In this document: piece after piece, positions 2,859 through 63,953 of the stretch
How positions within the stretch are numbered: the first letter of the stretch is position 1
Layout of the letters: each line of letters begins with the position of its first letter
DNA from: Escherichia phage UoN_LG358_1
Strand: one strand, 5' to 3'
Length of the DNA stretch: 64,000 nucleotides
Sequence record: OK570374
Notes under the pieces: model-generated
Seen by the model: only the letters and a program-made list of their open reading frames with translations
What the model was told of the DNA's origin: nothing
Database searches by the model: none
Position numbers and translations under genes: made by a program

Positions 2859-3386
2859 TTATTCACTCATCCAGACCTTGCGAGGAGCCGCATCATTACC
2901 CATAACCATTTCAAAAAGTTCTTTCCAATTTGGCGGCAATGACACTACGTCATAAACCGGTTGCTGAATAACTCGTTCATATTCATCTTCTTCCAAAGAA
3001 CCAAGTCCTTTGATGTAACGAAGTTTCCATCCAGCAAGTTTATCTTTTTCAGCTTCATATTCGGCGGCATTGTAATACCATTTTTGTTCAGAGCCCTTTG
3101 ACATAATAATCACTGGGGTTTTAACAAACCGAATACGTCCTTCTTCGAACAATTTCGGCCAATTAGCAAAGAACGCTAGCAGGCTTGGATAAATTGACCC
3201 TGTGCCAAATATCTCTATTGTGAGGTATATCAATGATTAGCCCGAAGGCTAACCATCAACATCAGCATCAGTCATGATGGCAATGTTTTTATAATTCAAA
3301 GAAGAAGTTGATGTACGACGTACAATTGTCTGGGCTTTATATGATTTCATATCAATTTCAGTTTCTTTAACTTTAGCAAATTTCAT
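2859..3386 (-). CDS. 60: DNA topoisomerase II small subunit gp60, interrupted by a translational-bypass coding gap (about 3204..3251)
   Basis: N-terminal 45 codons MKFAKVKETEIDMKSYKAQTIVRRTSTSSLNYKNIAIMTDADVDG end at GGT then TAG (3251..3249), followed by UAGCC-UUCG-GGCUA hairpin; same-frame C-terminal segment ...TGSIYPSLLAFFANWPKLFEEGRIRFVKTPVII...YIKGLGSL...NWKELFEM matches T4 gp60 on both sides of its 50-nt hop. Confidence 0.7.
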
Positions 3387-4086
3387 TTAAAACCTCATAA
3401 AATTTTTCATCAGGAGTCCAACCGTTTTTAAACTGATTGAACGCGATTTTGAACAGTTTCGTTTTGATAGTTATATTATTAACCGTTTTCCATTTAGCAA
3501 TTCCGGTTTTCTTATAACTAACTGGGTCATAAACGTTAGCATACCAATCATAAAGGGACGGAATCAACTTAACTGCGTCTGGATTGGTTTTAGATTTGTT
3601 ATACCAAGGTTTAGATTTTTCAAGGGCGGCTGCTACTTTTGTAGCGTTTAACGTGTTACCAACTCCGCATAAACCAAGGTCCTTTATTAAAGGGTCGTCC
3701 GTTCTTAGTCTATAGGTTGTGTTATCTTTATCCTTGTAAACTCCGTATCCTTTCACACCTTCAAATTTTCTTCCGTAATTTACGCCAACCCAATCTTCTT
3801 CAGTGTATTCGCCTTTCGTCAGTAATCGACATTCTCCAGTTTCTTTATTTCTAAGTAAAATTTTGTCACGCATGAACTCAGCAGACCAATCTGAAATCAT
3901 ATTAACATAATTTTTCCTGGCTATTTCATAAAGTTTAGAACGAAATATTGTTCCAGAATTCATTATCCGGTTCAAAGCATAAGACATTTCTTTGTTTTTA
4001 TGAATTTTAAACAATAACCAGTGCGCAATAAAATGTTCGCGATATGTCAATTTTACCAAATTATCTGAAGTATCTAATCCACCCAT
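3373..4086 (-). CDS. mobA: HNH homing endonuclease (MobA-like), inserted between topoisomerase genes 39 and 60
   Basis: 237-aa ORF; HNH signature HHILPRSMGGLDTSDNLVKL...EHFIAHWLL begins in the in-frame stretch upstream of the first ATG (up to 4167), so the true start is uncertain. Confidence 0.6.
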   Translation of the reverse strand: MGGLDTSDNLVKLTYREHFIAHWLLFKIHKNKEMSYALNRIMNSGTIFRSKLYEIARKNYVNMISDWSAEFMRDKILLRNKETGECRLLTKGEYTEEDWVGVNYGRKFEGVKGYGVYKDKDNTTYRLRTDDPLIKDLGLCGVGNTLNATKVAAALEKSKPWYNKSKTNPDAVKLIPSLYDWYANVYDPVSYKKTGIAKWKTVNNITIKTKLFKIAFNQFKNGWTPDEKFYEVLNEIC

Positions 4087-4167
4087 GCTTCTTGGAAGTA
4101 TATGATGAATTTCTCCTTTAACCGGCGGAACCCTGGTTTTACCCCGGGAAATTAGTTTTTCTATAAT

Positions 4168-5721
4168 TCATACTAAGTCTTTTACTTTTTTCCAGACGCC
4201 ATCAATAAAAATTTCGTCATTGATATTAACTACAATATCTTCACCGGCAACATTTACAGTATACCATTGTTCGCCGGCTTCAACTTCCGTGAATGGGTCT
4301 TCACCAATGACTAACCCAGTAATTGCACAAATATCAAAGATTTCTTTGTTTTTCAAAGCATCACCTGCAGACATTCCCCAGGTGTTCATCACTTTACCAC
4401 GTAATGGATAACCGCCATGAAGGGCACGGTCACGAGTATTAATTAGATAACCAATAGCAGAATCACCTTCTGTTAAAAACAAAGTTGTTTCTACTTTATC
4501 ATTACCATATTCGCCAGCTTTGATGTGTTTATGAACTTTAGCTTTGGCCGCCTTTTTCGCTGCTTTGGTTTCTGCTGCTTTCTCTGCCGCTAGTTTACGT
4601 GCTAATGCAGCTTCAATAATCGGCATTAAAATAGCATCAGATTTCATAATCTGATTAGAAATTTTCTTTGCATCGAGATTTAAGTGAGATTTAATTTCGC
4701 CCCATGGACTTGTAAGACGCTCTTTGGTTTGCGAGTCAAAGCGCAAGTTACTCATATCTCGAATAAACATCAACACAGTAAAACACTCTTTAATACGAGC
4801 TTTGTTTACTTCAATTTTGTGTTTACGTTTAATAGCCGGAATTAATTCATTAGCAATTTCGTCAATAACATAATCAATATGCGAACCGCCATTCTTTGTA
4901 TGAATGTTGTTAACATAAGTCATTTGACGAAAACCATCTGGAGAATTACCTATAGCCAAAGAATAATTTTCTTCATCAATAATGATAGCATTTTTATCAT
5001 ACTGCTTAGAATATTTTTTGAAATTACTATCAACTTTTTTATTGTTAAATTTAAATTCAATTTTTGGATAAACGACTGCCAATGTCTGTAAACGGTCCAA
5101 CATAATATCAAAATAAACATCATCAAAATTGTTCATTTCGAAATGGCTAAAATCTGGAATAAATTCTACCTTAGTTCCTTTATAAGAGGATTTTTTGGAT
5201 TTCCAAGAAACATTGTCAGAATTATTGCTACAAGAAACTGTTAATTCATTTTCTCCATCAGATGTTGTACCTTTAAACATAACAGAGAAAATATTAGTCA
5301 ATGAAGAACCAACACCGTTTTGCCCGCCAGTTTTACGCTCTTCATCAGCTCCAAAGTTTCCGCCTGCCTTAGTTTTCGTCCATGCTGCTACTGGACCAGG
5401 AATTTCTTCACCTTCAGGAGTAGTAACCATAGCCTGTGGAATTCCACGGCCATTATCTTCTACGGTCACTTTGCTTGTGGAAGAATCGATATTGACTGAA
5501 ATTTTATTAGCAAATTTAAAACTTGTACGGATAGCTTCATCAACAGAGTTATCGATAATTTCATCAATAAGTTTGAGAACGCCAGCTACGTATTGTACCC
5601 GCTTAAATTCGCCAAAAACAAAACGCTCATGAAATTCGTTAGATACACTTCCGATGTACATTCCAGGACGCTTAAGAACGTGTTCCTTGTCAGAGAGCAT
5701 TTGAATTTTATTTTCAATCAT
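4168..5721 (-). CDS. 39: DNA topoisomerase II large subunit gp39 (GyrB-like ATPase)
   Basis: 517 aa; MIENKIQMLSDKEHVLKRPGMYIGS... GHKL/TOPRIM motifs; length matches T4 gp39. Confidence 0.9.
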   Translation of the reverse strand: MIENKIQMLSDKEHVLKRPGMYIGSVSNEFHERFVFGEFKRVQYVAGVLKLIDEIIDNSVDEAIRTSFKFANKISVNIDSSTSKVTVEDNGRGIPQAMVTTPEGEEIPGPVAAWTKTKAGGNFGADEERKTGGQNGVGSSLTNIFSVMFKGTTSDGENELTVSCSNNSDNVSWKSKKSSYKGTKVEFIPDFSHFEMNNFDDVYFDIMLDRLQTLAVVYPKIEFKFNNKKVDSNFKKYSKQYDKNAIIIDEENYSLAIGNSPDGFRQMTYVNNIHTKNGGSHIDYVIDEIANELIPAIKRKHKIEVNKARIKECFTVLMFIRDMSNLRFDSQTKERLTSPWGEIKSHLNLDAKKISNQIMKSDAILMPIIEAALARKLAAEKAAETKAAKKAAKAKVHKHIKAGEYGNDKVETTLFLTEGDSAIGYLINTRDRALHGGYPLRGKVMNTWGMSAGDALKNKEIFDICAITGLVIGEDPFTEVEAGEQWYTVNVAGEDIVVNINDEIFIDGVWKKVKDLV

Positions 5722-6327: not shown

Positions 6328-6782
6328 TATAGTAATCCTTTTAACATTTCAATAGCCGCTTTGACTTGATTTTTATTAGTAATTGCTAAAGTGATATGAG
6401 GAATTTCATTTTCTTCTGAAGCTTCATATTCGTCATCGTTTGCTGCTAAATTAGGTGTTTCAAACTTAAAATATTTAGCTTCTTCACGCAGGATAAGGAA
6501 ATATTCATCGCTGACTTTAGCATTCAAGTATCCAGGCAATCCATTGACTGTATCTTGGTCACCAACCAGTACGCCATTACACATTATAGCTGCTTCGGCA
6601 TTACCGGTCTCGGGATTGACATAAATTACTCTAAAAAATCCGCCGTTTTTCTCAATAAAGTCAATAATTTCCTCATTGTACTTATGAGCTTTAGCAAATC
6701 CAACGTAATCGCGGATTGAATACCATTTATCTTCTACAAATTCTTCTAAATTCTGTGTAGTCATTAGATAGTTTCCTTCCAA
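6327..6782 (-). CDS. hypothetical protein
   Basis: 151-aa ORF in track. Confidence 0.5.
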   Translation of the reverse strand: MEGNYLMTTQNLEEFVEDKWYSIRDYVGFAKAHKYNEEIIDFIEKNGGFFRVIYVNPETGNAEAAIMCNGVLVGDQDTVNGLPGYLNAKVSDEYFLILREEAKYFKFETPNLAANDDEYEASEENEIPHITLAITNKNQVKAAIEMLKGLL

Positions 6783-29764: not shown

Positions 29765-31446
29765 TTTTCCATTACCGTGAATCTGCCAACTTTCTTCATC
29801 TGAAGATGTTGCCCATAATCCTGCGGGTCATGGTCTTTATGGCTTATGATAAAGATATTACTATCAGTCATTCCATTGAGAATTGTTCCTACTCGCTTAA
29901 TACCTTCATTATCAAACGCGCCATCATAAACTTCATCAAGAAAGAGACAGTTAATTTTAACATTAGAAACTTTTTCAGCAATGTCTCGCCACGTGAACAG
30001 CAACGCAATATCAATACGAGCTTTTTCGCCTTGGCTGAATGACGCATAACTGAATTCTTCGCGCCCGCGAGATTTAATAGTTTCGGTGAATTCTTCGTTC
30101 AAAGTAAAGACATAATCAGCTTCCATAATTTTAAGATACTGATTAATCTGTTTGTTGAACATCGGAATATATTTGCTAATAATAGCTCCCTTGATACCCG
30201 AATCTTTCAGCATTTCAGTTAAAATGCCTCGATGATATTTTTCCATAACCATATTGGATTTGGTATCAACTATTTTATTCAATTCTTCGTTAAGCGTTTT
30301 AATCTCATCGGCATGATTGATGAATTCTTTTGATGCTTTTTCAATCGCCGCTTTTACTTTTTTAGCCTTTTCTACTGTTGAAATTAAAGTTTGCTTTTTA
30401 GATTTTATGTCTTGAGCAAGTTCACGTTGCGTTCTAACGTTGCTCTCATATTCATGCACTAGTGTCTCTAGATTGGCTCTATGACTTTCTAACGACTCTG
30501 ATTTATGTTTACATTCATTAATCTTATCGTTAATCTGAGTGACTAGAGATGACCCAGAGTCTAATTGTTGCATGCATGTTGGGCATGAACCTCCAGAATG
30601 ATACAAAGAAACAACCTTGTTATATGAGTCAATTTTAGACTTAATCAACAGAGTTTGATTACCAATTTCAGTAAACGCGGACCGAGGGTCTTCATCAAGC
30701 ACGATAGATGTTAAACGCTCAGTTGCTTTTTCAATTTCGGATTTGATAGAACGTGCTTCAGTCGCAAGTTCATCATACATGGTCTGAAAACGAGCTATAT
30801 TTTCTCCTGATAGCTTTTTCTGGCGTTCAACGTTCTCTTCATAAATTTTAATCTGTTGGATAATTCCGTCTTTCTTTGCGTCCAACACAGAGACTTGTGA
30901 ATTAATTTCTCTTATATGAGATTTATTCAATTTATCCATTTCAGCTAATGTAGAAACTTCGAGCAAGTCTTCTACTAACTTCCGCCGAGCTGGAGTACTC
31001 AAACCCATGAACGGTGTATAACCAGCTGTACCAAGCACAACTACTTGCTTAAAGCTGGAATAAGACATTTTGATAAGTTCTTCAAAATAGCTTTGAAAAT
31101 CTTTAACAGAAGCTGCCTCGTCCAGGCGAACTCCGTCTCGAGTTATTTCAAAGATATTCGGCTTTTGACCGCGCTTTATATAAAAATGCTTACCGTCATA
31201 CTCCATCCAAAGCTCTACTAACATATCTTTTTTATTAATAGAGTTTACTAGTTGTCCTTTCTTAATATCACGGAACGGTTTGCCAAATAAAGCAAATGTA
31301 ATAGCTTCCAGCATGGTACTCTTACCACCACCATTTTTGCCGGTGATGAGAGTTTTTTGTACCTTATCAAGTTGAATATCAATTGGAACTTGTCCAACAG
31401 ACATTATATTAGAATATTTTACTCTATTAAGTTTAAAGGTTTTCAT
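29761..31446 (-). CDS. 46: recombination endonuclease subunit gp46 (Rad50/SbcC-like)
   Basis: 561 aa; Walker A GKNGGGKST, coiled-coil middle with CPTC zinc hook, signature/Walker B at C-terminus. Confidence 0.9.
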   Translation of the reverse strand: MKTFKLNRVKYSNIMSVGQVPIDIQLDKVQKTLITGKNGGGKSTMLEAITFALFGKPFRDIKKGQLVNSINKKDMLVELWMEYDGKHFYIKRGQKPNIFEITRDGVRLDEAASVKDFQSYFEELIKMSYSSFKQVVVLGTAGYTPFMGLSTPARRKLVEDLLEVSTLAEMDKLNKSHIREINSQVSVLDAKKDGIIQQIKIYEENVERQKKLSGENIARFQTMYDELATEARSIKSEIEKATERLTSIVLDEDPRSAFTEIGNQTLLIKSKIDSYNKVVSLYHSGGSCPTCMQQLDSGSSLVTQINDKINECKHKSESLESHRANLETLVHEYESNVRTQRELAQDIKSKKQTLISTVEKAKKVKAAIEKASKEFINHADEIKTLNEELNKIVDTKSNMVMEKYHRGILTEMLKDSGIKGAIISKYIPMFNKQINQYLKIMEADYVFTLNEEFTETIKSRGREEFSYASFSQGEKARIDIALLFTWRDIAEKVSNVKINCLFLDEVYDGAFDNEGIKRVGTILNGMTDSNIFIISHKDHDPQDYGQHLQMKKVGRFTVMEK

Positions 31447-32275
31447 TTAATATCCGTCTGTCAAATTCGGCTACTATAGCTTGTAAAGAACTTGTTATGG
31501 GATGCCCGAGTTTAATAAGTTCTTTTGAAAATGTAGAATATCTAGGTTTATTCATTTTAATCCACTCTGTATAAAGCAAATCAAAATTTTGCCATTGATA
31601 CGATTTTCTTCTGGATTTTAAATGAGCCTCTCTAATTTCGTCATTCTTCCAACTTTGAGAAACTCCCAATGATAAAGATTTACGATAATCTAAATTTTTA
31701 GATGAGAGTCTAGTTGCATTTAAATGCTTAATTTTATTTTCTGGATTTTCAAACCACTCTTTAGTTTTCTTAGATACTAAAGACTTAAATTCATTTGAAT
31801 TTACTCGTTCCAGGTGAATTTTTAAATTATCGGAATTTTCAAACCATCGTTTGACTGCTTGGCTAATTTTTATTCTGTTTTCTGCTATTGAATAATAACT
31901 GGACATTTTGATTGAAATAGCCTTTGAAATTTCAGTAGAAACTTTTGAATATATTTTAGCCATTTCTTCAAATTCTTCAAAACTACATTTATAAGCAGTT
32001 TTGCTATTATTCATTCTATTAATAGCTTGCAACATTCTATAATCTTTAGTTTCAGACAATATAGCATGTGCAATAAAATGGTTATAATGTGTTAAATGCA
32101 CAATATTTGACGGGTCTTTAGCATATTCTGGAAAAATGGACTTTGGTAAAATATGATGAGCTTGAGTATGTCCTTTGTTTAACTTGGTTGAATTAGTTTT
32201 AATAAATTCTACATACTTATTAACGCCTTCCCATTGAGGGAAGGCTGCTTTTAATATAGTCTCAGCGTCAATCAT
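31433..32275 (-). CDS. HNH homing endonuclease inserted between genes 46 and 47
   Basis: 280 aa; HHILPKS...NIVHLTHYNHFIAH HNH motif plus repeated WFEN-type motifs in the C-terminal half; overlaps both neighbours. Confidence 0.65.
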   Translation of the reverse strand: MIDAETILKAAFPQWEGVNKYVEFIKTNSTKLNKGHTQAHHILPKSIFPEYAKDPSNIVHLTHYNHFIAHAILSETKDYRMLQAINRMNNSKTAYKCSFEEFEEMAKIYSKVSTEISKAISIKMSSYYSIAENRIKISQAVKRWFENSDNLKIHLERVNSNEFKSLVSKKTKEWFENPENKIKHLNATRLSSKNLDYRKSLSLGVSQSWKNDEIREAHLKSRRKSYQWQNFDLLYTEWIKMNKPRYSTFSKELIKLGHPITSSLQAIVAEFDRRILNENL

Positions 32276-41677: not shown

Positions 41678-41842
41678 CTCAATTATATAGCCAATATGTC
41701 CTTGCCCATTTCTTACGGTTTCGGATTTGAGTTTTAGTCGGCTTAGTAGAGAACCACCAGGAAATTTTATATCCATCGTCAAAATCAAAAATTAGATGCC
41801 ATTTAGACATCTGATTTGATACATACTTTAATTCAGTTTTCA
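41678..41842 (-). CDS. small hypothetical protein (54 aa)
   Basis: Hand-translated MKTELKYVSNQMSKWHLIFDFDDGYKISWWFSTKPTKTQIRNRKKWARTYWLYN. Confidence 0.2.
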
Positions 41843-41850
41843 TTTAAATA

Positions 41851-42270
41851 CTAGCTGGAAAAAGATAGCTGTTTTTCTAGAGCTCGAATATAATCCGCTG
41901 CTGCTTGCATTATATTAGCTTCATACCCATTAACACGGATTTTCGCGGCTTCAAGATGGTCTGTTATTGGTTGTCCGTCGTCAAAAAATCCTAAAGTAAC
42001 CGCTGGAAATAAATCAGAATCATATTCTTCGATTTCTTTAAGTTGATACATACCGTCTTCACAGTAAAAACACCAGAACCAACTATCGCGAGCGTTAATA
42101 TGAAGATAAGGGCCGTTTTTAATTTTGACAGAAGTGATACCGTCTTCATGGCCGTTTTCTTTGTCAACAGTAATAACTTTAAAAACAGTTCCGACTTTCA
42201 TTTCAGGAAATTGTTCCAGAAGTTCTTCATCGTCTTCAATAATTTCAAAAACTTTATTCACTAAACTCAT
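41851..42270 (-). CDS. hypothetical protein
   Basis: Track ORF (151 aa) with probable start at ATG 42270 directly after the upstream stop. Confidence 0.4.
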   Translation of the reverse strand: MSLVNKVFEIIEDDEELLEQFPEMKVGTVFKVITVDKENGHEDGITSVKIKNGPYLHINARDSWFWCFYCEDGMYQLKEIEEYDSDLFPAVTLGFFDDGQPITDHLEAAKIRVNGYEANIMQAAADYIRALEKQLSFSS

Positions 42271-42271
42271 A

Positions 42272-42631
42272 TTAAATTCCATCACTTTTAGTATTAGGAG
42301 TATCAAATAATGATATTACACAATCCGGATTTCCAGTTATATGACAGCTTGTAAACAGTGCCCAACGGCTTAAAGCCCATTTACCTAAAATAATTTTAGA
42401 CCTTTTGTTGGATTCTTCAACGCTGAGAGTCATATTAAGTCTTGGAAAATAAACAGAAGTGATACCAGTGATTTCTCCAGTGTCAGTAAAACTTGTGTAG
42501 CATTTGGAAATAACAAGTTCATCACCAGGGATAACACCCATATCTCTGAAATAGTCTATCACATCTCCAAGCTCATGCTTGACTTTAAAAACTTCCGGTT
42601 TTACTGTAAGTTTAAGTCCAGTTAAATTCAT
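42272..42631 (-). CDS. hypothetical protein
   Basis: 119-aa ORF in track. Confidence 0.4.
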   Translation of the reverse strand: MNLTGLKLTVKPEVFKVKHELGDVIDYFRDMGVIPGDELVISKCYTSFTDTGEITGITSVYFPRLNMTLSVEESNKRSKIILGKWALSRWALFTSCHITGNPDCVISLFDTPNTKSDGI

Positions 42632-63176: not shown

Positions 63177-63253
63177 TGGTCGAGACAGAAGGATTCTAAC
63201 CTTCAACCTACGGTTTAGAAGACCGTTGCTCTATACTATTAAGCTATGCCTCG
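63177..63253 (-). tRNA. tRNA-Arg (anticodon UCU), CCA encoded
   Basis: Hand-folded cloverleaf: acceptor CGAGGCA/TGTCTCG, D stem GCTT/GAGC, anticodon stem ACGGT/ACCGT with loop CTTCTAA, T stem GAAGG/CCTTC. Confidence 0.55.
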
Positions 63254-63819
63254 GAAATAGTTTTGCGTCTATATACTTCTCCGTCGTAATATTTATCGAC
63301 AAGACGCTTTACTTGACTGTGTGATATTTTTAATATTTTAGAGGCATCAGAAACCCACCCAAATTTAGTTTTATCCACGTCTTTTATTAAGTTTAATTGA
63401 GACGTAGATAATTCTAGACCTCTAATCTTGGCTTTAGCACTACCAGCTTTTCCTAGTTTAACACCGGCCAAATAAAGTTGTTCCTTGGTTCGAGTATCAA
63501 CTCTTTTTCCATTTGTATGGAGGTCTTTATTATTTTGGCTATTAGTAGCGCAATAAACATTTTCAATAGAATAAGGTCCAGAATCACCGATGCGACACAT
63601 ACAATATTGTTGAGCTTTATTACCGCGTTTTTCTAATTTTCCAGTTGAAATCCACCAATTAAGCCAGGACTCATATGTAAATAACCATTCTATGTTTCTA
63701 GCCTTCGCCTTTCTTCTTTGATTTTCATATTTAACTTTCATGTTTATTGCTTTCACTCGGCTATCCAATTTTAAGAAGAGTGAGAGTCTTAGTCTTGTAC
63801 GGAGTAACCTTTTATGCAT
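63244..63819 (-). CDS. hypothetical protein in tRNA cluster; possible HNH-family (HNH_3-like) homing endonuclease
   Basis: YCMCRIGDSGPYSIENVYCATNSQNN resembles an HNH_3 core with Arg in place of His; start uncertain (ATG 63819 or 63741). Confidence 0.35.
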   Translation of the reverse strand: MHKRLLRTRLRLSLFLKLDSRVKAINMKVKYENQRRKAKARNIEWLFTYESWLNWWISTGKLEKRGNKAQQYCMCRIGDSGPYSIENVYCATNSQNNKDLHTNGKRVDTRTKEQLYLAGVKLGKAGSAKAKIRGLELSTSQLNLIKDVDKTKFGWVSDASKILKISHSQVKRLVDKYYDGEVYRRKTISEA

Positions 63820-63877
63820 TGGCAGCTATCGCGCGATTCGCACTTCCGATAAATGGAGTTACCGTTACACTCTAATT

Positions 63878-63953
63878 TGGCTGGGAATACTGGGCTCGAA
63901 CCAGTGCATCCCGGAATCAAAATCCGGTGCCTTACCAACTTGGCTAATTCCCA
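63878..63953 (-). tRNA. tRNA-Gln (anticodon UUG), CCA encoded
   Basis: Reverse complement TGGGAATTAGCCAAGTTGGTAAGGCACCGGATTTTGATTCCGGGATGCACTGGTTCGAGCCCAGTATTCCCAGCCA folds as a canonical cloverleaf. Confidence 0.8.

What the first reader, a model, noticed from the sequence alone, without database searches (positions are those of the whole stretch)
3373..4170. MobA-like HNH endonuclease continues in frame from the gp39 stop codon with no canonical start ahead of its HNH motif
The frame carrying the HNH motif (IHHILPRSMGGLDTSDNL...) is open from the gene 39 TGA (4170..4168) and the first ATG (4086) falls in the middle of the motif. A functional enzyme would need a non-AUG start, reinitiation or stop-codon readthrough; otherwise this is a decaying endonuclease. 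Together with the bypass element it forms the T4-like mobile cassette splitting topoisomerase II.
Basis: partly seen in the sequence, partly recalled or inferred. Interest (0 to 1): 0.45.

Follow-up and report, generated by a model that had tools for sequence, protein, structure and literature searches.

The report
Frameshifted MobA homing endonuclease pseudogene
The odd "start-less" HNH endonuclease gene between the two halves of the phage topoisomerase gene is a known MobA homing endonuclease that an 11-base deletion just after its real start codon has knocked out of frame, so it is an ordinary, very recent pseudogene and not a case of unusual translation.

Summary
On the minus strand the HNH-bearing frame is open from the gene 39 TGA (4170-4168). 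Its first canonical start, ATG 4086, lies after the catalytic His-His (4107-4102).

The cause is simple. The window is a Gelderlandvirus (Salmonella phage S16 / STP4-a group). In S16 and NP4 the same gene is an intact 269-aa MobA homing endonuclease. It starts at an ATG that overlaps the gene 39 stop (ATGA; window 4171-4169). The window lacks 11 bp (S16 GTTTGATATAT) between 4162 and 4161, after codon 3. The native start now reads MNYRKTNFPG-stop, and the gene body has fallen by coincidence into the gene 39 frame.

Apart from the deletion, the window is identical to S16 from 4476 to 3355, while the backbone follows STP4-a, which has no insert. So the cassette arrived recently by homing and the endonuclease then died.

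I found no support for recoding: no conserved signal, no RNA structure and no suppressor tRNA. MobA decay inside the gene 39/60 hop cassette is already described for T4, KARL-1 and Aes012. This is a new allele of a known element and of low interest.

The parts
4168..5721 (-). Gene 39 (topoisomerase II large subunit, N-terminal part, 517 aa). It includes the cassette-encoded C-terminal extension from about 4297 to the TGA at 4170-4168.
   Evidence: ORF list; S16 annotation gp4; alignment to the uninterrupted STP4-a gene breaks at 4297.
3204..4297 (-). MobA mobile element. It is 1094 bp here and 1105 bp in S16, and it replaces 58 bp of the uninterrupted topoisomerase gene of STP4-a.
   Evidence: BLAST of the window against STP4-a leaves window 3204-4297 and STP4-a 3274-3331 unaligned; multiple alignment. 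Size and layout match the published 1097-1106 nt element.
4139..4171 (-). Remnant of the native MobA start. The ATG at 4171-4169 overlaps the gene 39 TGA (ATGA). After the deletion it reads a 10-codon ORF, MNYRKTNFPG, ending at TAA 4141-4139.
   Evidence: Frame translation. S16 and NP4 annotate the 269-aa endonuclease from this ATG. The (A/G)TGAATTA start is conserved in four clades.
4161..4162 (-). Site of the 11-bp deletion. S16 and NP4 have GTTTGATATAT here. Placement is ambiguous by one G. It is a frameshift after codon 3 of mobA.
   Evidence: Three-way DNA alignment of window, S16 and NP4.
3373..4167 (-). Body of the MobA gene, equivalent to S16 residues 6-269. It is now in the gene 39 frame, with its stop at 3375-3373. 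Its DNA is identical to S16.
   Evidence: PHROG 655 'homing endonuclease', E = 2e-52 for the S16 protein.
4023..4113 (-). HNH catalytic motif: His26-His27 at 4107-4102, Asn41 at 4062-4060, His50 at 4035-4033 and His54 at 4023-4021 (S16 numbering).
   Evidence: Pfam HNH and HNH_5 matches, both below the curated cut-off. A profile search aligns positions 19-50 to the HNH domains of solved structures. These residues are invariant in four MobA clades.
4084..4086 (-). First canonical start in the MobA frame. It equals Met33 of intact MobA, lies downstream of the catalytic His-His, and has no Shine-Dalgarno sequence.
   Evidence: SD duplex energy only -0.7 kcal/mol.
3249..3386 (-). Gene 60 first segment (45 codons plus TAG). 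It overlaps the end of mobA by 14 nt. The take-off codon GGT is at 3254-3252 and the stop TAG at 3251-3249.
   Evidence: S16 annotation gp2.4.
3204..3251 (-). 48-nt coding gap of the translational bypass. It runs from the TAG, through the hairpin AGCC-UUCG-GGCU, to the landing codon GGC at 3206-3204.
   Evidence: Direct reading and coordinates. The GGU/GGC take-off and landing pair is reported for S16 by Manning & Atkins 2022.
2859..3203 (-). Gene 60 second segment (resumes TGSIYPSLL..., stop 2861-2859).
   Evidence: ORF 2859-3233 contains this frame. It is collinear with the 3' part of the uninterrupted STP4-a gene.

Best explanation
This is a MobA-type HNH homing endonuclease gene inactivated by a single 11-bp deletion immediately after its third codon. 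In intact relatives the gene starts at an ATG overlapping the gene 39 stop codon (ATGA). That layout implies translational coupling, which is an inference. Here ribosomes starting at that ATG make only a 10-residue peptide. The 264 remaining codons sit in the gene 39 frame behind its TGA, and no canonical start precedes the catalytic histidines, so no active endonuclease should be made. The cassette as a whole (gene 39 tail, mobA, gene 60 leader, 48-nt bypass) is S16-type and sits in an STP4-a-like backbone with short S16-like flanks. It therefore entered this lineage recently by homing or recombination. The endonuclease was then lost, or was already dead in the donor, as expected in the life cycle of a homing endonuclease once its target site is occupied. 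The split topoisomerase and the hop remain intact. The sequence comparisons are shown directly. The lack of protein and of activity is inferred.
For: 1. Window, S16 and NP4 differ in the endonuclease gene only by the 11-bp gap at 4162/4161. There are no substitutions between 4476 and 3355, against 12 upstream and 36 downstream in the 3-kb comparison. Under a uniform rate, P(0 substitutions in 1122 bp) is about 1.5e-8.
2. S16 and NP4 annotate a 269-aa endonuclease from the ATG that overlaps the gene 39 stop.
3. The N-terminus MNY..IY..LI and the (A/G)TGAATTA start are conserved in Salmonella, Escherichia, Proteus and Acinetobacter phage MobA. Most of about 1000 Mob-family tblastn matches begin at residue 1.
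4. The HNH motif straddles ATG 4086. The Pfam match is lost when the protein starts at 4086, and solved HNH domains align to positions 19-50.
5. At informative sites the window follows STP4-a from 6146 to 4477 and from 3138 to 2826, and follows S16 from 4369 to 3177. The backbone is 99.7% identical to STP4-a.
6. Assembly quality is good: only 8 small gap openings in 49.5 kb against STP4-a, and most are multiples of three, adjacent compensating pairs, or lie outside listed ORFs.
7. The literature says MobA is 269-279 aa, overlaps the gene 39 tail out of frame by 1-20 nt, and is pseudogenised or lost in several genomes, including lab T4.
Against: The gene body carries no further decay (no substitutions against S16), so sequence alone cannot show relaxed selection. 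By chance the body is in frame with gene 39, so natural UGA leakiness could yield traces of a gp39-MobA fusion containing MobA residues 8-269. AUU 4110 is preceded by a strong AAGGAG and would retain the His-His. No read-level data are available to confirm the deletion.
Confidence: 0.9

Rival explanations
1. The endonuclease is still made at a low but functional level by non-standard translation. Possible routes are readthrough of the gene 39 UGA (a gp39-MobA fusion), a +1 shift of the 10-codon ORF at GGG-UAA onto GGU, or initiation at AUU 4110.
For: The body is exactly in frame with gene 39, and the 4th base after UGA is A. The 10-codon ORF ends CCG GGG UAA, where a +1 slip would enter the MobA frame. 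AUU 4110 sits behind AAGGAG (duplex energy -7.5 kcal/mol) and precedes the His-His. From general knowledge, a homing nuclease needs few molecules.
Against: The layout was created by a deletion and is absent from all relatives, so nothing has been selected for recoding. The junction RNA folds no better than shuffled sequence (z = 0.71). No suppressor tRNA is present in the window or in the S16 tRNA cluster. For the +1 route there is no SD-like element upstream of GGG-UAA (read directly from the sequence), and GGG to GGU re-pairing mismatches at the wobble base. The AAGGAG lies only 2 nt from AUU 4110. Every route loses invariant N-terminal residues (Y3, I6, Y7, and for some routes L10 and I11).
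Confidence: 0.05
2. The 11-bp gap is a sequencing or assembly error, and the real phage has an intact S16-type mobA.
For: The allele was found nowhere else: not in 50,697 phage records, IMG/VR, JGI metagenomes or GTDB genomes, and its 237-aa product is not on record. The missing stretch is AT-rich. These phages encode dCMP hydroxymethylase and glucosyltransferases (annotated in STP4-a), and from general knowledge such DNA modification can disturb some sequencing chemistries.
Against: An 11-bp loss is not a typical base-calling error. The rest of the window shows only 8 small gap openings in 49.5 kb against its nearest relative, and most are in-frame lengths, adjacent compensating pairs, or lie outside listed ORFs. 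The intact allele was also absent from the three large collections, so absence there carries little weight.
Confidence: 0.04
3. A 237-aa N-terminally truncated protein from ATG 4086 is made. It would act as a nuclease-dead DNA-binding protein, for example by occupying the MobA target site.
For: ATG 4086 is the first canonical start downstream of the two upstream stops. The 237-aa product still matches most of PHROG 655 (E = 7e-34), so the C-terminal region is intact.
Against: There is no Shine-Dalgarno sequence before ATG 4086 (-0.7 kcal/mol). The same internal ATG exists in intact S16, so it is not a new feature. Zero substitutions give no sign of selection. No such role is known for this family.
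Confidence: 0.02

Closest known systems
Salmonella phage S16 gp3 homing endonuclease (YP_007501046) and its gene 39 / mobA / gene 60 cassette (Salmonella clade of the MobA element; Manning & Atkins 2022)
   Same: Same position, same boundaries, same GGT/GGC bypass. The DNA is identical across the endonuclease gene except for the deletion.
   Different: S16 has the extra GTTTGATATAT and therefore one 269-aa ORF from the ATG overlapping the gene 39 stop. The window's copy is frameshifted after codon 3. The window's backbone is STP4-a-like, not S16-like. The gene 60 leader (3354-3270) carries 6 substitutions against S16.
Phage T4 mobA / 60.1 (annotated 'defective DNA endonuclease, H-N-H family')
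   Same: A MobA-family gene between genes 39 and 60, next to the ribosomal hop. It is disrupted, so no full-length ORF remains. The N-terminal sequence VNYEKIYNDLIVRGKTRV..GEIHHILPRSMGG is homologous to the window's.
   Different: The T4 reference differs from an intact Tequatrovirus copy (ELT1) by about nine separate 1-2 nt insertions spread over about 220 bp. The window has one 11-bp deletion at the very 5' end. T4-type MobA starts at a GTG about 20 nt before the gene 39 stop, not at an ATGA overlap. The T4 gap is 50 nt with GGA/GGA; here it is 48 nt with GGT/GGC.
Salmonella phage SEA1 (Gelderlandvirus): cassette without endonuclease
   Same: Split topoisomerase with the cassette-encoded gene 39 tail, gene 60 leader and an identical bypass sequence.
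   Different: In SEA1 the endonuclease ORF is replaced by about 47 nt, which is a later stage of decay than the window's single frameshift.
Programmed +1 frameshifting at a stop codon (prfB type) or 'savior' recoding of indels
   Same: A short ORF ends at a stop codon, and a +1 slip there would restore the downstream frame.
   Different: There is no conserved shift site, no SD-like stimulator at the right distance, and no conservation in relatives. The arrangement is a one-off product of a deletion.

Membership tests
MobA mobile element (topoisomerase II gene 39/60 splitting cassette with translational bypass) | Inserted at the conserved site in the topoisomerase large-subunit gene, replacing 55-75 nt; element of about 1.1 kb | tested here: met
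   Window 3204-4297 (1094 bp, or 1105 with the missing 11 bp) replaces 58 bp of STP4-a. Published range is 1097-1106 nt.
MobA mobile element (topoisomerase II gene 39/60 splitting cassette with translational bypass) | Adds an in-frame C-terminal extension to gene 39 and an N-terminal leader to gene 60 | tested here: met
   The gene 39 ORF continues from 4297 to 4168 in cassette sequence. The gene 60 leader is at 3386-3252.
MobA mobile element (topoisomerase II gene 39/60 splitting cassette with translational bypass) | Bypass cassette: matched take-off and landing codons, a stop codon after take-off, and a take-off hairpin | tested here: met
   GGT 3254-3252, TAG, hairpin AGCC-UUCG-GGCU, GGC 3206-3204, 48-nt gap. 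Tested at sequence level only; bypassing itself was not tested.
MobA mobile element (topoisomerase II gene 39/60 splitting cassette with translational bypass) | Intact MobA ORF of 269-279 aa that overlaps the gene 39 tail out of frame by 1-20 nt | tested here: not met
   The start ATG 4171 overlaps the TGA by 4 nt as in S16, but the ORF stops after 10 codons because of the 11-bp deletion. The published description allows for pseudogenised copies.
MobA mobile element (topoisomerase II gene 39/60 splitting cassette with translational bypass) | Endonuclease nicks the empty target site and drives homing | not testable with these tools
   Only an indirect footprint is available: S16-like co-conversion tracts flank the insert in an STP4-a-like backbone.
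HNH (beta-beta-alpha-metal) endonucleases | His ... Asn ... His catalytic motif | tested here: met
   EIHHILPRSMGGLDTSDNLVKLTYREHFIAH is present in the frame. It aligns to HNH domains of solved structures (E = 0.016-0.5) and to PHROG 655 and 12434.
HNH (beta-beta-alpha-metal) endonucleases | Reaches the Pfam HNH (PF01844) curated threshold | tested here: not met
   14.6-14.7 bits against a cut-off of 21.4, for both the intact S16 protein and the window frame. This is a divergent Mob-type HNH.
HNH (beta-beta-alpha-metal) endonucleases | An expressible ORF that includes the first catalytic His | tested here: not met
   There is no ATG, GTG or TTG between the TGA at 4170-4168 and the His-His at 4107-4102.
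Programmed recoding (stop-codon readthrough or +1 frameshift) | Arrangement conserved among relatives | tested here: not met
   All four phage records with this MobA (>=99% protein identity) have the intact single ORF. The deletion allele was found nowhere else.
Programmed recoding (stop-codon readthrough or +1 frameshift) | Stimulatory RNA structure or a dedicated suppressor tRNA | tested here: not met
   Fold z-score is 0.71. The tRNAs present are only Arg(tct) and Gln(ttg) in the window, and Arg, Gln and Met in S16.

The most novel reading that the evidence does not exclude
Because the 11-bp deletion happens to place MobA residues 8-269 in frame behind the gene 39 UGA, natural UGA leakiness (or initiation at AUU 4110 behind AAGGAG) could yield trace amounts of a gp39-MobA fusion or a shortened MobA that still nicks empty target sites. 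The 'dead' cassette would then retain some mobility, making it an accidental case of readthrough rescuing a homing endonuclease.
Probability: 0.05. Interest if true: 0.45.

Novelty: new member of a known kind. Interest (0 to 1): 0.15.

Why it matters
The main use is as a correction. A gene caller would annotate a 237-aa "HNH endonuclease" here that lacks its catalytic histidines, and a reader might suspect recoding. In fact it is a one-lesion pseudogene of the well-described MobA element.

There is modest added value. Together with published genomes, the genus Gelderlandvirus now shows all four stages of the homing-endonuclease life cycle at one site:
- empty site (STP4-a and others);
- intact endonuclease (S16);
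- freshly frameshifted endonuclease (this window);
- endonuclease deleted, with the split gene and hop retained (SEA1).

The clean co-conversion footprint suggests the cassette moved between lineages recently. This phage and S16 would make a natural near-isogenic pair for testing MobA-dependent homing and whether the hop is still needed once the nuclease is dead.

Tried and rejected
- **Other copies of the deletion allele.** I searched for the exact junction in the phage records, IMG/VR, JGI metagenomes and GTDB genomes with a gapped pattern covering both alleles, and for the 237-aa product by exact look-up. All were negative. The intact junction was also absent from the three large collections, so these negatives say little.
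- **A recoding signal.** The junction RNA fold is no better than shuffles. No suppressor tRNA was found. A near-cognate start scan found only AUU 4110 and AUA 4101 behind a strong SD, at poor spacings of 2 and 11 nt, and AUA lies after the His-His. I checked by hand for a hop from the GTA before the TGA to the GTA at 4142-4140; it lands out of frame, so I rejected it.
- **Pfam as proof of HNH membership.** The match is below threshold even for the intact protein. I relied instead on PHROGs, PDB profile alignments and the invariant residues.
- **The primary experimental paper (Bonocora et al. 2011, PNAS).** It is not held in the library. Its results are cited only as summarised by Manning & Atkins 2022.
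- **Not attempted.** Structure prediction of the N-terminal segment was not run, because the alignment sequences come from fetched loci that the tool does not accept, and the verdict does not depend on it. dN/dS could not be computed because there are no substitutions.
- **A first four-way MAFFT run with localpair timed out.** I repeated it with faster settings.
Full report
**What is in the sequence**

On the minus strand, gene 39 (topoisomerase II large subunit, N-terminal part) runs from 5721 to its TGA at 4170-4168. The same frame then stays open: IIEKLISRGKTRVPPVKGEIHHILPRSMGGLDTSDNLVKLTYREHFIAH... down to a stop at 3375-3373. That frame has no ATG, GTG or TTG before ATG 4086. The His-His of the HNH motif is at 4107-4102, upstream of that ATG.

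In its own frame it reads only MNYRKTNFPG before a TAA at 4141-4139.

**Where the window comes from**

The 3-kb region is 98% identical to Salmonella phage S16 (Gelderlandvirus) and to its near-duplicates UTK0003 and NP4. Its flanks are 94.9-99.1% identical to STP4-a, Melville, STML-198 and CGG4-1, which lack about 1.1 kb and have an uninterrupted topoisomerase gene. A 12-kb sample elsewhere in the window is 99.7% identical to STP4-a and 98.3% to S16.

**The cause of the start-less frame**

S16 and NP4 annotate a 269-aa homing endonuclease whose ATG overlaps the gene 39 stop by 4 nt. A direct alignment shows that the window lacks 11 bp (GTTTGATATAT in S16 and NP4) between 4162 and 4161, just after codon 3. 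It shows no other difference from S16 anywhere between 4476 and 3355.

The deletion shifts the body of the gene by one position. It now lies in the gene 39 frame, behind the TGA. Any frameshifting indel had to put the body in one of the two other frames, so this is a one-in-two coincidence.

**Is the S16 start the true start?**

Intact MobA proteins from four clades were compared: S16, Escherichia phage ELT1, Proteus phage Pm5461 and Acinetobacter phage Stupor. They share an invariant N-terminus (M1 N2 Y3 I6 Y7 L10 I11 ... G23 E24 H26 H27). They also share a start context (A/G)TGAATTA that overlaps the end of gene 39. Most of about 1000 Mob-family tblastn matches begin at query residue 1. The segment put out of frame in the window is therefore a conserved part of the protein.

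**Where the catalytic motif lies**

- Pfam HNH and HNH_5 match residues 24-43 of S16 MobA, equivalent to window 4113-4054. Both matches are below the curated threshold, and both vanish when the protein starts at ATG 4086.
- PHROG 655 ("homing endonuclease") matches with E = 2e-52.
- A profile of the four MobAs aligns positions 19-50 (GEIHHILPRSMGGxDDxxNLVKLTYREH) to the HNH domains of a group II intron maturase, Cas8f-HNH fusions, McrA and pyocin AP41.
- ATG 4086 is Met33, between the His-His and Asn41. A product starting there would lack the first catalytic histidine.

This part of the reading stands.

**The element and its history**

Against STP4-a, window 3204-4297 (1094 bp, or 1105 in S16) replaces 58 bp of the uninterrupted gene. 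This agrees with the published MobA element: 1097-1106 nt, 55-75 nt replaced, MobA of 269-279 aa overlapping the gene 39 tail out of frame by 1-20 nt, and the gene 60 leader overlapping MobA by 8-32 nt. Here that last overlap is 14 nt.

The bypass reads GGT (3254-3252), TAG, the hairpin AGCC-UUCG-GGCU, then the landing codon GGC (3206-3204). The gap is 48 nt. GGU/GGC is the pair reported for S16.

At sites where S16 and STP4-a differ, the window follows STP4-a from 6146 to 4477 (one exception, at 4549). It follows S16 from 4369 to 3177 (one exception, at 3179), and STP4-a again from 3138 to 2826 (two exceptions, at 2892 and 2880). With zero substitutions in 1122 bp of cassette against 48 in the rest of the comparison (P about 1.5e-8 under a uniform rate), this is the footprint expected of homing with short co-conversion tracts. 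An S16-type cassette entered an STP4-a-like genome recently.

Salmonella phage SEA1 keeps the gene 39 tail, the gene 60 leader and the hop, but about 47 nt stand in place of the endonuclease ORF. One genus therefore shows four states of the cassette: empty, intact, frameshifted and endonuclease-deleted.

**Could the enzyme still be made?**

- The junction RNA folds no better than shuffled sequence (z = 0.71).
- The window encodes only tRNA-Arg(tct) and tRNA-Gln(ttg). The S16 cluster has Arg, Gln and Met, so there is no suppressor.
- Among near-cognate codons in frame, only AUU 4110 and AUA 4101 lie behind a strong SD (AAGGAG), at spacings of 2 and 11 nt. AUA is already past the His-His. ATG 4086 has no SD.
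- A +1 slip at CCG-GGG-UAA would enter the MobA frame, but it has no upstream stimulator (read from the sequence) and a wobble mismatch on re-pairing.
- None of these features is conserved, because relatives simply have the intact ORF.

Trace readthrough of the gene 39 UGA would give a gp39-MobA fusion carrying residues 8-269. I cannot exclude this, and I rate residual function at about 5%.

**Artefact check**

Across 49.5 kb aligned to STP4-a there are only 8 small gap openings. They are 6 and 3 nt long, adjacent compensating pairs, or single bases of which three lie outside listed ORFs. The assembly is clean, and an 11-bp artefact is unlikely, though this cannot be proven without reads. The allele was found nowhere else. 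The intact allele was also absent from the three large collections, so those negatives are weak evidence.

**Comparison with what is known**

The MobA element, its role in homing and the protective role of the hop were established by Bonocora et al. 2011, cited here only through Manning & Atkins 2022. The latter lists S16 among the carriers. It states that the endonuclease is pseudogenised in lab T4, KARL-1 and Aes012 and lost entirely in other genomes.

The T4 reference annotates mobA as a 37-aa "defective" fragment plus ORF 60.1. It differs from intact ELT1 by about nine small insertions. The window's copy is a much fresher wreck: one lesion and no other change.

**Verdict**

This is a new allele of a known element and a routine stage of a known life cycle, so interest is low.

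Noticed in passing
window 3204-3254 (minus strand): The translational bypass of gene 60 has take-off GGT, TAG, a UUCG-capped hairpin, landing GGC and a 48-nt gap (T4 has 50 nt with GGA/GGA). This stretch shows no difference from S16 in the window/S16 alignment. The GGU/GGC pair is already reported for S16.
   Followed up: partly
window 3270-3354 (gene 60 leader): Six substitutions against S16 fall within 85 bp, directly after 1122 bp with none. Two of them (3282, 3270) match neither S16 nor STP4-a, and 3270 is shared with SEA1. The cassette donor was S16-like but not S16, or there is a second recombination breakpoint here.
   Followed up: partly
window 31433-32275 (minus strand): A 280-aa ORF with a Mob-type HNH motif (HTQAHHILPKS...NIVHLTHYNHFIAH) sits between the SbcC-like and SbcD-like (gene 46/47) homologues and overlaps both neighbours. 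STP4-a has only about 260 bp at this position. It looks like another, apparently intact, free-standing homing endonuclease.
   Followed up: partly
window 41778-42227: About 450 bp have no counterpart in STP4-a; part of a 151-aa ORF (41851-42306) lies in this stretch. Its nature was not examined.
   Followed up: no
window 6509-6627: About 120 bp do not align to STP4-a in the megablast comparison, although both flanks are more than 99% identical.
   Followed up: no
L003 (Salmonella phage SEA1) 2139-2188: SEA1 retains the split topoisomerase, the cassette-encoded tails and an identical bypass sequence, but about 47 nt of unrelated sequence replace the whole endonuclease ORF.
   Followed up: partly
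L005 (T4 NC_000866) 3450-3667: The T4 reference mobA/60.1 region carries 11 extra nucleotides in about nine separate 1-2 nt insertions relative to the intact ELT1 copy, with only 8 substitutions. So many scattered single-base insertions could be real decay or old sequencing errors; I could not tell which.
   Followed up: partly
window 4171-4190: The native MobA ATG has essentially no Shine-Dalgarno sequence (-0.9 kcal/mol) and overlaps the gene 39 stop as ATGA. This suggests that MobA expression in intact relatives depends on translational coupling to gene 39.
   Followed up: no
window 63177-63953: tRNA-Arg(tct) and tRNA-Gln(ttg) lie at the edge of the window. The S16 cluster has one more tRNA (tRNA-Met), whose counterpart would lie beyond the window end.
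   Followed up: partly
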